Source: Puia sp. (GTDB taxonomy: Bacteria > Bacteroidota > Bacteroidia > Chitinophagales > Chitinophagaceae). Taken from it: DNA of 64,000 nt. A model generated the notes under the pieces. The model was not told the origin of the DNA. It saw nothing but the letters and a program-made list of their open reading frames with translations, and ran no database searches. The stretch spans positions 55,459-119,458 of the forward strand of contig DASRRX010000006.1 in assembly GCA_035695565.1 (NCBI GenBank). Reading direction: 5' to 3'. Made by a program: the position numbers and the translations under genes. This document shows, in pieces, positions 8,300 to 10,426 of this stretch. The first letter of the stretch is position 1; each line of letters opens with the position of its first letter.

Positions 8300-10426
8300 T
8301 CAAGGGACGTCGTCTCTTCGAATGAGGCGAAAGACGCCGAAGCGGGTGATGAGAAAACCGATGGCGACGCCGATAAAAACAACGGTGAACAAGGTACCGA
8401 GCGGGAAGTCGAAGCAGCCACTGGATTCATCACTGGCGCCGAAGAAGACGATGCTGGTGTCGAGAAAGAGGAACGTGAAAGTAGAGATGGTCAGCAGGAT
8501 GAACAGAAAGATCAGGATGGCGGCGAGGGGCTTGGTCCATCGCCAGGTTTCGCCGACGTTGCGCAGGCGGTTGATGGAAAGGATCAGGCCGGTCAGGAAG
8601 AGGATGGCGATGACGATACTGAAAACTCCGAGCACGGTGGATTCTTCCTTGCGGATGAGGCTTCGGTCGTTATTTCTCACCCCGGCTTTCTCCCATTTGC
8701 GGATCAATACTTTAGGGAACTCCGTTTCACAGGGATAGGTAAGGATAAAATCATATTGTTCGAATTTCGCATTTATATAGGTCCATGACCACTGCCAGTC
8801 CTCGAGGGGCGGTTGCTTTTTATGTTCGATCCGGAGTACGGTCGTGGTCGTGTCGATGGCAGACAGGATCGCGGTCCGCACATCCCATAGGTCGGTATAG
8901 CCGTCGTCATCCCCCAGAGAAGCTATGACGACGCCGCCCAGATTGTTCTGCCGGATGAATTCAAATTTGGCTTCGAGGGAAACCGCATCATCATACCAGA
9001 TGCGTTGAAGGAATGTTCCGGTCTTGCTGGCGCTATCCAGCCTTTCGGTGGCGCTTAAAGGGTCGAAGACAGGGAGCGACTGGCTGGCGCGCTCGCGGAT
9101 CTCGCTATAGGTAATTGGCTGCGCGGAAATCCATTTCCCCGATCTCCATGTCCAACGGATGCCGAAATAAGGCAGGCAGACCATCAGTTTGGATGGCGGA
9201 ATGGACATATTGAGATATCTGGAGATACAGGTCTTGAGATCGTTGTTGCCGACGCCGGCGAGGGGCGCCAGCGGGCTTGGGTCATTGCGCCGGTATTTGG
9301 TGAAGTCAACCCAAAAACGATCTACGTATTCGTCGAGCGCCGGCAGGTCATATTCTTCAGTGGCATAGGCGGGGATGCGGATCCCGAGCGTATAGGAGCG
9401 CCTACCCCTACCCTTCAGCCCGGCGGCCAGTCTTTTGATAAAAGCAGTCAGGTTTGCTGAATCAGGAGGCATATCATCGAATAAAATATTCACACCTGCC
9501 GCGTGACGTTCATCGAGGTTATTGAGGATCTCGCCGATCAATGCCACCTGGGCGGCAGGGCTCCGCAGGAGGCTGTCGATGTTCCGTCTGTCCTGGCTCT
9601 GCACGCAAAGGCTGAGACGGCATTGCCTGGCGGCGCTGTCGAGGATGGCCGCCTTCTGCCAGTCCAGGTCACCCGTGAGTTTGCCGATGCCGCCCTTGAA
9701 TCCGACGGAAACCCAGGCCACTTCATCGATCAGTCTGAGGTCAGGGAGGGAGGCCGGTTGTTTCGTATTGAATGGATAGAGGCCGATGACTTCAAGGCGG
9801 TTTCGGACGCGATAGACATGGCGTTCGCTAAGCGTATCATTGATCTTCAGGGTATCGCATTTATAGTTGCCGCTGTCGAGGAGCCGGCGAATTCCGTCGA
9901 GCGCCTGCTGGTCGGCGGGGTTGGGCGCGTTTAGCATTTTGGCAACCAGGTCCTGGATAGCCTGGTCATCCACGCCTGGTCCGGTGTCGGGTGTAACGTC
10001 CGGGGAGTTGCCAGCGTGTGTTTTTAGCGAGTCGATGGCTGCCAGGACCGAGGAGATATCGTTGTGTTCGGCTTGTTGAGCCAGTGTCCATTGGGCCGAG
10101 TCGATCTTGTCGAGCTGGGTCATGGCCGCCTGGAGGCTATCCTTGAGGCCACTGCTGTCGATGATGGCGAGTACGCGGGTCTGTTCGCGTGTCCGGGCGT
10201 TCTGACGAAATTTGAGAAATTGAGCAAGTTTCTTTAACAGTCCTTCCTTGGGGGGCGTGACCTTAGGCGGGGTGACTTTGGGTGCGGTGACCTGGGGAGC
10301 AGTGACCTTTGGAGCGGTGATCCCCGGGATCGTGTCAGTTTGCGGATATATTGTCCCGTTATATCCTGCCGCCAGAACGTTGCAAGTAAGCGCCAGGAGT
10401 ATAGGTAAGGGGAATACTTTATACAT
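8300..10426 (-). CDS. Membrane-anchored GH18-fold protein, probably catalytically inactive
   Basis: Signal peptide MYKVFPLPILLALTCNVLAAG. GH18 barrel hallmarks (KLMVCLPYFG, IWYDD, NLGGVVIASLGDDDG), but the catalytic DxxDxDxE region reads AAGVNILFDD. Three hydrophobic C-terminal helices. Confidence 0.8.
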   Translation of the reverse strand: MYKVFPLPILLALTCNVLAAGYNGTIYPQTDTIPGITAPKVTAPQVTAPKVTPPKVTPPKEGLLKKLAQFLKFRQNARTREQTRVLAIIDSSGLKDSLQAAMTQLDKIDSAQWTLAQQAEHNDISSVLAAIDSLKTHAGNSPDVTPDTGPGVDDQAIQDLVAKMLNAPNPADQQALDGIRRLLDSGNYKCDTLKINDTLSERHVYRVRNRLEVIGLYPFNTKQPASLPDLRLIDEVAWVSVGFKGGIGKLTGDLDWQKAAILDSAARQCRLSLCVQSQDRRNIDSLLRSPAAQVALIGEILNNLDERHAAGVNILFDDMPPDSANLTAFIKRLAAGLKGRGRRSYTLGIRIPAYATEEYDLPALDEYVDRFWVDFTKYRRNDPSPLAPLAGVGNNDLKTCISRYLNMSIPPSKLMVCLPYFGIRWTWRSGKWISAQPITYSEIRERASQSLPVFDPLSATERLDSASKTGTFLQRIWYDDAVSLEAKFEFIRQNNLGGVVIASLGDDDGYTDLWDVRTAILSAIDTTTTVLRIEHKKQPPLEDWQWSWTYINAKFEQYDFILTYPCETEFPKVLIRKWEKAGVRNNDRSLIRKEESTVLGVFSIVIAILFLTGLILSINRLRNVGETWRWTKPLAAILIFLFILLTISTFTFLFLDTSIVFFGASDESSGCFDFPLGTLFTVVFIGVAIGFLITRFGVFRLIRRDDVP
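10247..10321 (-). repeat. 5 x 15-bp in-frame tandem repeat encoding (I/V)T(A/P)P(K/Q)
   Basis: GTGAC/GTGAT recurs at 10257, 10272, 10287, 10302 and 10317; protein ITAPKVTAPQVTAPKVTPPKVTPPK. Confidence 0.95.

What the first reader, a model, noticed from the sequence alone, without database searches (positions are those of the whole stretch)
8300..10426. Catalytically dead, membrane-tethered GH18 back-to-back with the CIS: candidate envelope anchor or receptor
Seen: signal peptide, (VTxPK)5 linker, amphipathic/coiled-coil segment, GH18 barrel whose catalytic DxDxE reads NILFD (acid Glu to Asp, assisting Asp to Leu; the MxYD motif is also lost), then 3 TM helices with a basic cytoplasmic tail. 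Two Cys (YPC, GCF) are predicted on the same periplasmic side. It shares a 242-bp divergent promoter region with the first CIS gene. Known: inactive GH18s act as GlcNAc-polymer lectins, and some CISs work while attached to membranes (Amoebophilus T6SS-iv, Anabaena thylakoid CIS, Streptomyces CIS via CisA). Inference: an inner-membrane, peptidoglycan-binding scaffold or sensor that could dock or trigger this effector-less, lysis-less CIS. That would be an undescribed anchoring mode in Bacteroidota.
Basis: partly seen in the sequence, partly recalled or inferred. Interest (0 to 1): 0.75.

Follow-up and report, generated by a model that had tools for sequence, protein, structure and literature searches.

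The report
Dead-chitinase membrane partner of injection system
This gene encodes an inner-membrane protein with a chitinase-like domain that has lost its catalytic residues. It always travels with one lineage of phage-tail-like injection machines and belongs to the family of SalCis20, solved in Salmonella in 2026, so it is a real but no longer undescribed candidate for docking the machine to the cell membrane.

Summary
Window 8300-10426 (-) encodes a 708-aa protein with a signal peptide, five VTxPK repeats, a helical stalk, a GH18 barrel and three C-terminal TM helices. The catalytic DxE reads L-F-D, and the MxYD motif and the beta-8 Trp are gone. The gene lies 242 bp from, and divergent to, the first gene of a complete clade Ib contractile injection system (CIS).

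The link to the CIS is not chance. All 15 full-length homologues in 401 same-family genomes lie in CIS loci. Among 37 loci whose cap gene is at least 50% identical to this one, 35 have the gene in the same divergent position. It also co-occurs 15/15 with a 262-aa short-fibre gene (window 22133-22921).

The catalytic positions vary freely across 73 members. A cytoplasmic-loop Trp, two periplasmic Cys and the C-terminal Pro are nearly invariant.

The family is already described. It is a distant homologue of SalCis20 (PDB 9R9A; Ejaz et al. 2026), which was proposed to act with SalCis13 to hold SalCIS at the inner membrane.

Verdict: a new, catalytically degenerate Bacteroidota member of a known kind. 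A docking role is likely but unproven.

The parts
8300..10426 (-). Cis20-like gene: a 708-aa inner-membrane protein with a degenerate GH18 domain
   Evidence: ORF and translation. Pfam GH18. AF2 model. Foldseek. Homologues and synteny.
10367..10426 (-). Signal peptide, about residues 1-20
   Evidence: Hydrophobic N-terminus read directly from the sequence and predicted as helix 7-19. No signal-peptide predictor was run. SalCis20 has a Sec signal whose loss abolishes membrane localisation (PMC13266070).
10247..10321 (-). (V/I)T(A/P)P(K/Q) x 5 linker, residues 36-60
   Evidence: Translation. A 15-nt x 5 tandem repeat. The copy number varies among homologues.
9869..10246 (-). Helical stalk, residues 61-186, predicted periplasmic
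   Evidence: AF2 helices 63-92, 94-106, 115-139, 154-165 and 170-185. Conservation is low.
8831..9868 (-). GH18-like (SleL/YaaH-type) barrel, residues 187-532
   Evidence: Pfam PF00704. PDB sequence hits 4wiw, 3cz8 and 4s3j. Foldseek TM-score 0.75-0.80 normalised to the target.
9473..9502 (-). Degenerate beta-4 catalytic motif AAGVNILFDD. L315 replaces the assisting Asp and D317 replaces the acid Glu.
   Evidence: Alignments to 4wiw, 4q6t and 3cz8. Family alignments. Coordinates.
8303..8635 (-). Three-TM module with a cytoplasmic loop (invariant W628), a periplasmic loop (C671) and the tail ...RRDDVP-COOH
   Evidence: Hydropathy and charge. AF2 helices. Conservation: W628 100%, C566 and C671 97% each, P708 98%. 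Terminal Pro in 72 of 73 members.
10427..10668 (.). 242-bp AT-rich divergent intergenic region between the cis20-like gene and the CIS operon
   Evidence: Coordinates. Sequence. Promoters were not verified.
10669..29788 (+). Clade Ib CIS operon. Gene order: cap (Pvc16_N), cap adaptor, sheath, two tube genes, CIS_tube, VgrG-like spike, PAAR, gp25, Cis11-like, Cis13-like, Cis12-like, tape measure, AAA ATPase.
   Evidence: Pfam. The sheath's best PDB hit is SalCIS 9r9h, E 5.5e-136. Cis11 hits 7aeb, 7b5h and 9rce. The gene order is the same in proteobacterial clusters.
22133..22921 (+). Cis13-like short-fibre gene (262 aa), the likely partner of the membrane protein
   Evidence: It co-occurs with the GH18-3TM gene in exactly the same 15 of 401 genomes. 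It is adjacent to that gene in Flavobacteriaceae loci. Its N-terminus matches the tCIS protein All3316, E 2e-5. The AF2 model has only a weak gp9-like match.

Best explanation
The gene encodes a Bacteroidota member of the Cis20 family. Cis20 proteins are inner-membrane accessory proteins of SalCIS-type (clade Ib) contractile injection systems.

Proposed mechanism:
1. After Sec export, the stalk and the GH18-like barrel sit in the periplasm, held by three C-terminal TM helices (inferred from sequence).
2. The barrel no longer works as a canonical GH18 hydrolase and serves as a structural or wall-contacting ectodomain (inferred).
3. The short conserved cytoplasmic loop (W628) and the C-terminal tail ending in Pro face the cytoplasm. 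They offer a docking site for the Cis13-like short fibre (window 22133-22921) on the baseplate (inferred).
4. The assembled machine is thereby positioned, and possibly triggered, at the inner membrane, like a type VI system, rather than floating free (inferred).

What is shown here: the architecture, the degenerate active site, the near-obligate genetic linkage to one CIS lineage and to Cis13, and distant homology to SalCis20.

What is inferred: the physical docking, the direction of firing, and any wall binding.
For: Linkage to the CIS:
- Six of six informative metagenomic or genomic contigs carry the gene next to Pvc16_N, with homologues down to 29% identity. The other flank differs in each.
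- In 401 same-family genomes, 110 carry Pvc16_N. The 15 genuine full-length homologues all lie in CIS loci.
- Of 37 loci with a cap gene at least 50% identical, 35 have the gene divergently upstream. In one exception, Niastella populi, it sits beside the AAA ATPase instead. The other, a Niastella MAG, was not resolved. Only 3 of 43 loci with cap identity below 45% have such a gene.
- Control: about 35 GH18-only relatives outside CIS loci lack the three-TM module where this was checked.

The partner gene:
- The 262-aa gene is present at E < 1e-40 in exactly the same 15 genomes.
- It is absent from the genome's own second CIS, which also lacks the membrane gene.

Selection pattern:
- The catalytic positions vary freely across 73 members.
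- W628, C566/C671, G690 and the terminal Pro (72/73) are nearly invariant.
- The tail, TM3 and the cytoplasmic loop are at least as conserved as the barrel core.

Homology to SalCis20:
- A Pelobacter-MAG protein in a collinear cluster hits the Bacteroidota family HMM at E 3e-12. It hits 9r9a_B at E 1.5e-24 through the TM region to the C-terminus.
- Profile A4 hits 9r9a at E 6e-13.
- The window sheath's best solved relative is the SalCIS sheath.

Published data on SalCis20 (PMC13266070):
- It localises to the membrane, dependent on its signal sequence.
- Its cryo-EM structure is a homodimer with three TM helices.
- SalCIS lies close to the inner membrane in tomograms.
- The double deletion of SalCis13 and SalCis20 yields the most intact particles.
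- AF-Multimer suggests a Cis20-Cis13-Cis11 chain.
Against: - No experiment exists for any Bacteroidota member.
- In the Salmonella work the anchoring rests on low-resolution tomograms and on structure prediction described as 'transient'.
- Only about 15 + 12 residues of the protein face the cytoplasm, which is little surface for a stable anchor.
- Co-occurrence of Cis13 and Cis20 could reflect shared descent within one CIS lineage rather than contact.
- Sequence similarity between the Bacteroidota family alone and SalCis20 is weak: 9.6 bits against the 9r9a fragment.
- AlgoCIS, a related clade Ib system, is free in the cytoplasm and is released (PMC8894135).
- Sister members (G185 and L044-46 fully; L048 and L165 with MGYE) keep the DxE, most of MxY[D/E] and the Trp. 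The ancestral role may therefore have been enzymatic.
Confidence: 0.55

Rival explanations
1. It is a working peptidoglycan-remodelling enzyme, as proposed for SalCis20 by analogy with MltE. It would use Asp317 as a non-canonical acid to open the wall locally so the machine can be inserted or fire.
For: - The fold is of the SleL/YaaH/YdhD wall-lytic GH18 type.
- About half of the members keep an acidic residue (D or E) at the acid position.
- Some sister members have intact catalytic sets.
- The authors of the SalCis20 paper proposed this role (PMC13266070).
Against: - In this protein the assisting Asp is Leu, the MxYD Tyr and Asp are deleted and the beta-8 Trp is Ser.
- Across 73 members the Asp position takes 14 different residues. 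The acid position is Q, T, N, K, S, R or G in many.
- No enzyme assay was reported for SalCis20. By motif spacing SalCis20 itself reads DGITLDID, with Asp in place of the acid Glu.
Confidence: 0.12
2. It is a release factor. The three-TM module (N-out, C-in, charged tail), which resembles a class I holin in topology, would permeabilise the membrane. With the wall-directed ectodomain, this would lyse the producer cell to free extracellular particles.
For: - The topology and the charged C-terminal tail.
- The cluster has no recognisable lysis cassette.
- The gene has its own divergent promoter region.
- Clade Ib systems such as AlgoCIS and MACs are released by lysis (PMC8894135).
Against: - The TM module matches no holin family in Pfam or PHROGs beyond noise.
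- The protein is 5-8 times larger than holins and carries a Sec signal.
- The lytic residues are lost.
- No release of SalCIS was detected (PMC13266070, section 12 heading).
- It is strictly coupled to a baseplate fibre gene, not to eCIS in general.
Confidence: 0.1
3. It is an envelope sensor or trigger, not a static anchor. The periplasmic domain would detect wall damage or a ligand, and the TM module would relay this to fire or assemble the machine.
For: - The protein has a large periplasmic domain and tiny, conserved cytoplasmic elements.
- In Salmonella, deleting Cis13 and Cis20 raised the share of intact, uncontracted particles (PMC13266070).
- Streptomyces CisA is needed for firing (10.1101/2024.06.25.600559).
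Against: The protein has no signalling domain. Nothing here distinguishes this reading from docking, and the two are not exclusive.
Confidence: 0.15
4. It is an unrelated neighbour or an immunity protein with no structural link to the machine.
For: It is transcribed divergently, not within the operon.
Against: - Its link to the CIS is kept across at least four families of Bacteroidota and into Proteobacteria and Planctomycetota. Its position within the cluster changes but it always stays inside or beside the cluster.
- The window carries no cognate periplasmic effector.
Confidence: 0.03

Closest known systems
SalCis20 of the Salmonella enterica subsp. salamae CIS (PDB 9R9A; Ejaz et al., Nat Commun 2026, PMC13266070)
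   Same: - Sec-type signal, a long low-complexity/helical N-terminal part, a SleL-like GH18-fold periplasmic domain and three C-terminal TM helices.
- Encoded in a clade Ib cluster with the same gene order and with a Cis13-like short fibre.
- The acid Glu is replaced by Asp in both.
   Different: - Sequence similarity is only distant and needs bridging sequences.
- The window protein has also lost the assisting Asp.
- The gene has moved to the head of the cluster and is divergent, instead of following the ATPase.
- The host is a Chitinophagaceae bacterium, and no experiment exists for it.
- The paper treats the domain as a hydrolase.
SleL / YaaH / YdhD spore-cortex GH18 enzymes (PDB 4s3j, 4s3k, 3cz8) and 4wiw
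   Same: They are the best sequence and fold matches of the barrel.
   Different: They are soluble enzymes with an intact DxE, MxYD and Trp, LysM domains and no TM module. They are not CIS-linked.
CisA of the Streptomyces coelicolor cytoplasmic CIS (10.1101/2024.06.25.600559)
   Same: It is a CIS-cluster membrane protein with a periplasmic domain. It is required for firing and is predicted to contact Cis11.
   Different: - It is unrelated in sequence and fold.
- It is bitopic, with a long cytoplasmic N-terminal region and a substrate-binding-protein-like C-terminal domain.
- It belongs to a clade IId system in a Gram-positive host.
T6SS wall-associated accessories (TagL-type peptidoglycan-binding anchors; the MltE lytic transglycosylase recruited for assembly)
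   Same: The concept is the same: an envelope protein that ties a contractile machine to the cell wall or opens the wall for it. This rests on my own knowledge and on the analogy drawn in PMC13266070.
   Different: The folds differ (OmpA-like, lytic transglycosylase). They act with a TssJLM membrane complex, which is absent here.
Chi-lectins (YKL-40, Ym1 and similar): catalytically inactive GH18 proteins
   Same: They have the GH18 fold with the catalytic acid lost. They appear among the Foldseek hits.
   Different: Chi-lectins keep the aromatic sugar-binding residues. This family has also lost the beta-6 Tyr and, in most members, the beta-8 Trp, so glycan binding cannot be assumed.

Membership tests
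Cis20 (SalCis20-like CIS inner-membrane protein) | [quoted passage not shown] | tested here: met
   A hydrophobic N-terminus followed by small residues (VLA-AG), conserved in type among homologues. No dedicated predictor was available.
Cis20 (SalCis20-like CIS inner-membrane protein) | Large periplasmic domain with a SleL-like hydrolase (GH18) fold | tested here: met
   Pfam PF00704, E 1.3e-20. Foldseek to SleL 4s3k/4s3j, E about 1e-18.
Cis20 (SalCis20-like CIS inner-membrane protein) | Three TM helices at the C-terminus | tested here: met
   Hydropathy, charge bias and AF2 helices at 598-618, 634-655 and 676-696. The same is seen in all CIS-linked relatives examined.
Cis20 (SalCis20-like CIS inner-membrane protein) | Encoded in or beside a clade Ib CIS cluster that also encodes a Cis13-like short fibre | tested here: met
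   The sheath's best solved relative is 9r9h. The cluster is collinear with proteobacterial clusters that carry a 9r9a homologue.
Cis20 (SalCis20-like CIS inner-membrane protein) | Sequence homology to SalCis20 (9R9A) | tested here: inconclusive
   - Indirect evidence is significant: L286 against the family HMM gives E 3e-12, L286 against 9r9a gives E 1.5e-24 including the TM region, and profile A4 against 9r9a gives E 6e-13.
- Direct evidence is weak: the Bacteroidota-only HMM scores 9.6 bits, and P0001 alone did not retrieve 9r9a.
Cis20 (SalCis20-like CIS inner-membrane protein) | Homodimer; membrane localisation; contact with Cis13 and the baseplate | not testable with these tools
   No multimer prediction or experiment was available.
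Catalytically active GH18 (chitinase or SleL-type glucosaminidase) | DxxDxDxE motif with the acid Glu and the assisting Asp | tested here: not met
   The motif is AAGVNILFD, with L315 and D317. These positions are not conserved in the family.
Catalytically active GH18 (chitinase or SleL-type glucosaminidase) | MxYD motif (beta-6) and the conserved Trp (beta-8) | tested here: not met
   A 3-residue deletion leaves V-DFT, and the Trp is Ser503.
Chi-lectin-type inactive GH18 (glycan binder) | Aromatic sugar-binding groove retained despite loss of the acid | tested here: inconclusive
   The beta-6 Tyr is Phe or deleted and the beta-8 Trp is lost in this protein. The Trp is kept in 27 of 73 members.
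Class I holin | Small stand-alone three-TM protein, N-out and C-in, matching a holin family | tested here: not met
   The topology is compatible. However, the module is fused to a 590-aa ectodomain and gives only noise-level hits to Pfam and PHROGs.

The most novel reading that the evidence does not exclude
The dead-enzyme Cis20 and the short fibre Cis13 together mark a widespread lineage of CIS that fires while docked to the producer's inner membrane. I saw this lineage in Chitinophaga, Niastella, Sediminibacterium, Pedobacter, Mucilaginibacter and Flavobacterium, and in Proteobacteria and Planctomycetota. If so, it would be a T6SS-like mode without TssJLM. Loss of catalysis would have turned an ancestral wall-cutting enzyme into a wall-contacting firing platform. 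A single genome such as this one would then run one docked and one free system side by side.
Probability: 0.35. Interest if true: 0.65.

Novelty: new member of a known kind. Interest (0 to 1): 0.42.

Why it matters
How clade Ib injection systems that lack a T6SS membrane complex attach to and fire across the producer's envelope is an open question. It applies to Amoebophilus T6SS-iv and to SalCIS.

This analysis shows three things:
- The Cis20/Cis13 pair is a near-obligate, co-inherited signature of one large CIS lineage in culturable, genetically tractable soil and freshwater Bacteroidota.
- Selection acts on the membrane and cytoplasmic face rather than on the enzyme site.
- Active and dead forms coexist in sister lineages.

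Together these give clean genetic handles: deletions, tail truncations and swaps between active and dead forms. They also give natural controls, such as a second Cis20-less CIS in the same genome, for testing the anchoring model. The results also caution against annotating these proteins as chitinases or as wall hydrolases.

Tried and rejected
- P0001 alone against PDB sequences did not retrieve SalCis20. The Foldseek PDB library ends on 2026-04-08 and did not show 9R9A. The link came from an earlier scan note, which I then verified in the paper and through a bridging sequence.
- The three-TM module gave no consistent family against Pfam, PHROGs or PDB. Hits to Ninjurin, Claudin and holin families are noise-level.
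- NCBIfam gave only a non-significant SLATT_4 hit.
- I surveyed 40 CIS loci of the same bacterial family that lack the gene, looking for an alternative membrane protein in the same position. The upstream genes are heterogeneous and there is no recurrent three-TM protein.
- I tested whether the rhomboid+DUF6576 gene at the end of the cluster (30265-31161) is a conserved partner, for example a protease acting on the TM module. It is absent from six related clusters, so I rejected the idea.
- G190's GH18 hit (E 8.5e-34) proved to be an unrelated GH18 without the TM module and outside a CIS.
- The Cis13-like model gave no significant structural match. The best was T4 gp9 at E 6e-3.
- A genus-level survey of Algoriphagus failed because the tool needs a G handle.
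- The sigma-70 promoter scan was not used, because Bacteroidota promoters differ. By eye I found no clear TAnnTTTG motif in the 242-bp spacer.
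Full report
**1. What is at the coordinates**

Window 8300-10426 (-) is one ATG-initiated ORF of 708 aa.
- The N-terminus is hydrophobic and signal-like.
- Residues 36-60 are five (V/I)T(A/P)P(K/Q) repeats, encoded by a 15-nt x 5 tandem repeat at 10246-10320.
- AlphaFold2, run with a 17-sequence alignment (mean pLDDT 72, barrel 80-94), predicts a helical stalk at residues 63-185. 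It then predicts a beta/alpha barrel and three long C-terminal helices.
- Pfam places GH18 on residues 282-507 with E 1.3e-20.
- The closest solved sequences and folds are 4wiw, YdhD 3cz8, SleL/YaaH 4s3j and 4s3k, and 5jh8. These belong to the wall-active branch of GH18.

**2. The active site**

- In alignments to 4wiw (..DGVVIDFE), 4q6t (..INLDFE) and 3cz8 (..VTIDFE), the window protein reads AAGVNILFD. L315 stands at the assisting Asp and D317 at the acid Glu.
- The beta-6 MxYD motif is replaced by V-DFT through a three-residue deletion.
- The beta-8 Trp is Ser.

**3. Topology**

- The hydrophobic helices span 598-618, 634-655 and 676-696.
- Loop 1 (NRLRNVGETWRWTKP) has net charge +3 and loop 2 has -4. 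The tail ends RLIRRDDVP.
- With a signal peptide, this gives a periplasmic ectodomain, a cytoplasmic loop 1, a periplasmic loop 2 and a cytoplasmic tail.
- C566 (YPC) and C671 (GCF) both lie on the periplasmic side.

**4. Surroundings**

- The first gene of a complete contractile injection system starts 242 bp away on the other strand.
- Its gene order is cap (Pvc16_N), a 312-aa cap adaptor, sheath, two gp19-type tube genes, CIS_tube, VgrG-like spike, PAAR and gp25. Then come a 1241-aa Cis11-like protein, a 262-aa protein, a 971-aa Cis12-like protein, the tape measure and the AAA ATPase.
- The sheath's best solved relative is the SalCIS sheath 9r9h (E 5.5e-136), ahead of AlgoCIS 7adz (1.6e-93).
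- The Cis11-like protein matches AlgoCIS, the Anabaena tCIS and SalCIS about equally.
- On the other flank lies an unrelated 1601-aa PKD/SGNH protein with a type IX secretion sorting domain.

**5. Is the neighbourhood meaningful?**

Yes, very strongly.
- The 5.8-billion-protein search gave 22 homologues.
- All six contigs with enough flank carry the gene divergently beside Pvc16_N, including homologues at 29-34% identity. The other flank differs every time. A seventh is cut at the contig end.
- In 401 genomes of the window's own bacterial family, 110 carry Pvc16_N, at about 125 loci. Sixteen hit the family profile at E < 1e-30. One of these (G190) is an ordinary GH18 without the TM module.
- The other 15 all lie in CIS loci:
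  - Eleven are divergent next to the cap gene.
  - One is the same with a 2-kb IS-like insertion.
  - One (Niastella populi) lies at the far end beside the ATPase.
  - One is on the same strand upstream of the cap.
  - One is on a short contig beside two eCIS_core (DUF4157) genes.
- For the converse test I used the window's cap protein to fetch 80 loci from species-representative genomes.
  - Of 37 with a cap at least 50% identical, 35 have the gene divergently upstream. The two exceptions are both Niastella.
  - Of 43 with caps below 45% identity, only three have a GH18-3TM gene.
  - Forty CIS loci of the family that lack the gene have caps only 26-39% identical and heterogeneous upstream genes.
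- The gene is therefore a signature of one CIS lineage, not of CIS in general. I saw that lineage in Chitinophaga, Niastella, Sediminibacterium, Ferruginibacter, Flavitalea, Parafilimonas, Pedobacter, Mucilaginibacter, Flavobacterium and Bacteroidales MAGs.

**6. A wider family and its two states**

- A profile scan found further CIS-linked members in other cluster positions:
  - before the sheath (Cytophagales);
  - between the 262-aa gene and Cis12 (Flavobacteriaceae);
  - after the tape measure (Algoriphagus aestuariicola).
- All have a signal, a GH18 domain, three TM helices and a C-terminal ...xP.
- About 35 more distant GH18 hits from many phyla are not near a CIS. Those I checked lack the TM module.
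- Among 73 distinct CIS-linked members:
  - The terminal residue is Pro in 72.
  - The assisting-Asp position takes 14 different residues.
  - The acid position is D (21), E (16) or Q, T, N, K, S, R or G.
- About nine members keep the DxE pair. Most of them also keep MxY[D/E] and the beta-8 Trp, for example G185 with IDFEE / MAYD / IWCLG. L056 keeps DxE and the Trp but has MGKN in place of MxYD, and P0020 has lost both MxYD and the Trp.
- In the 63-member degenerate group:
  - W628 in the cytoplasmic loop is invariant.
  - C566 and C671 are each 97% conserved, G690 98% and P708 98%.
  - The tail, TM3 and the cytoplasmic loop are at least as conserved as the barrel core.
  - The linker and the stalk are the least conserved.
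- The fold is kept and the chemistry is not. The membrane and cytoplasmic face is under the tightest constraint.
- The library of 1.84 billion representatives holds 838 proteins at E < 1e-30. Roughly 60-70 of the best 150 match over the full length.

**7. A co-inherited partner**

- The 262-aa gene (22133-22921) lies between Cis11 and Cis12. It is found at E < 1e-40 in exactly the same 15 of 401 genomes.
- It is absent from this genome's own second CIS on contig C15. That locus also lacks the cap adaptor and the membrane gene.
- In two Flavobacteriaceae loci the two genes are adjacent.
- Its homologues (203 loci) extend into Proteobacteria, Desulfobacterota and Planctomycetota. The clusters there are collinear with the window's. 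The ORF right after the ATPase matches the GH18-3TM profile in 8 of the 30 loci scanned (mostly non-Bacteroidota), and many others are cut short by the locus end.
- Its N-terminus resembles All3316 of the Anabaena thylakoid CIS (E 2e-5). Its AF2 model (pLDDT 78) has only a weak gp9-like match.

**8. Comparison with the literature**

- Full-text searches for a GH18 or glycosyl hydrolase linked to CIS found nothing relevant.
- The AlgoCIS gene table lists no such gene (PMC8894135). The large eCIS surveys do not mention it.
- A note from an earlier agent of this scan (e1-5210153) pointed to Ejaz et al., Nat Commun 2026 (PMC13266070). I read that paper.
- The paper describes SalCis20 of the Salmonella enterica subsp. 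salamae CIS as follows:
  - It has a Sec signal, a large periplasmic SleL-like domain and three C-terminal TM helices.
  - It was solved as a homodimer by cryo-EM.
  - It localises to the envelope in a signal-dependent way.
  - SalCIS bundles lie close to the inner membrane in minicell tomograms.
  - The double deletion of SalCis13 and SalCis20 gave the most intact particles.
  - AF-Multimer suggested a transient Cis20-Cis13-Cis11 chain.
- The authors propose wall remodelling and inner-membrane anchoring. They note homologues in clade Ib and define a distinct CIS cluster. No enzyme assay is reported.
- I tested the link to SalCis20 directly.
  - 9r9a_B is hit at E 1.5e-24, from the GH18 region through the TM helices to the C-terminus, by the Pelobacter-MAG protein L286.
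  - L286 sits after the ATPase in a collinear cluster and hits the Bacteroidota family HMM at E 3e-12.
  - A mixed profile (A4) hits 9r9a at E 6e-13.
  - The Bacteroidota-only HMM against the 9r9a fragment gives only 9.6 bits, although the matched pieces lie in the correct order.
- The relationship is therefore real but distant.
- By canonical motif spacing, SalCis20 reads DGITLDID. It too has Asp in place of the acid Glu.

**9. How it most likely works**

- Shown here: the architecture, the decayed catalytic site, obligate linkage to one CIS lineage and to Cis13, and family membership with SalCis20.
- Inferred: the protein is exported and anchored by its three TM helices. Its ectodomain no longer hydrolyses glycans by the GH18 mechanism. 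Its short conserved cytoplasmic loop and Pro-terminated tail, probably as a dimer, are bound by the Cis13-like fibre on the baseplate. This docks, and perhaps triggers, the machine at the inner membrane. I give this about 0.55.
- Rivals: a non-canonical wall hydrolase (0.12), a lysis or release factor (0.10), a sensor or trigger (0.15, not exclusive with docking) and a coincidental neighbour or immunity protein (0.03).
The aromatic subsite residues that chi-lectins retain are lost here.

**10. Verdict**

The docking idea matches an independent 2026 publication, so the finding is a new member of a known kind rather than an undescribed mode.
- What this analysis adds:
  - the strict Cis20/Cis13 co-occurrence;
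  - the breadth of the lineage in Bacteroidota;
  - the family-wide decay of the active site alongside conserved membrane and cytoplasmic elements;
  - the existence of active-type sister forms;
  - the relocation of the gene from behind the ATPase to the head of the cluster.

Noticed in passing
own genome, contig C15 about 81800-99300 (outside the window); locus L088: There is a second, complete CIS locus in the same genome. It has cap, sheath, tubes, spike, PAAR, gp25, Cis11, Cis12, tape measure and ATPase. It has no Cis20-like gene, no Cis13-like gene and no cap-adaptor homologue. It is a natural internal contrast to the window's system.
   Followed up: partly
window 30265-31161 (+): A rhomboid protease fused to DUF6576 lies just after the CIS ATPase and a 143-aa ORF. 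It is not conserved in six related clusters, so it is probably not part of the system.
   Followed up: yes
L028/L029 (G387, Niastella populi, contig1 27-54 kb): Here the cis20-like gene lies at the far end of the cluster, divergent to the AAA ATPase. This is close to the proteobacterial arrangement, where cis20 lies right after the ATPase. It may be the ancestral position.
   Followed up: partly
L033 (G051) 5832-7889: A 2-kb insertion carrying an HTH_32 (transposase-like) ORF separates the cis20-like gene from the cap gene in one genome.
   Followed up: partly
L005 14832-22194 and L030 348-3105: In some relatives, DUF4157/eCIS_core (cargo-type) genes lie just beyond the cis20-like gene. The window has none. 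The only two eCIS_core matches in this genome are on contigs C5 and C12.
   Followed up: partly
PDB 9r9a_B residues about 560-570 (from the alignment): The solved SalCis20 reads DGITLDID at the GH18 beta-4 motif, so it too has Asp instead of the catalytic Glu. The paper calls the domain a putative hydrolase, calls SleL an amidase and reports no activity assay.
   Followed up: partly
L032 7035-8840 and 8856-9212 (G185): An 'active-type' relative (601 aa; IDFEE, MAYDYYW, IWCLG) lies on the same strand upstream of the cap gene. A 118-aa ORF, not characterised further, lies between them.
   Followed up: no
window 10247-10321 and alignment A1 columns 80-115: The copy number of the VTxPK repeat differs among close homologues, from one to about eight units. 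This suggests the linker length is free to vary.
   Followed up: no
window 3245-8050 (-): A 1601-aa secreted protein with esterase, six PKD domains, an SGNH domain and a type IX sorting domain flanks the gene. A similar 1595-aa protein lies about 5 kb from the homologue in L001 only, so this is local synteny with the closest relative and not a family feature.
   Followed up: no
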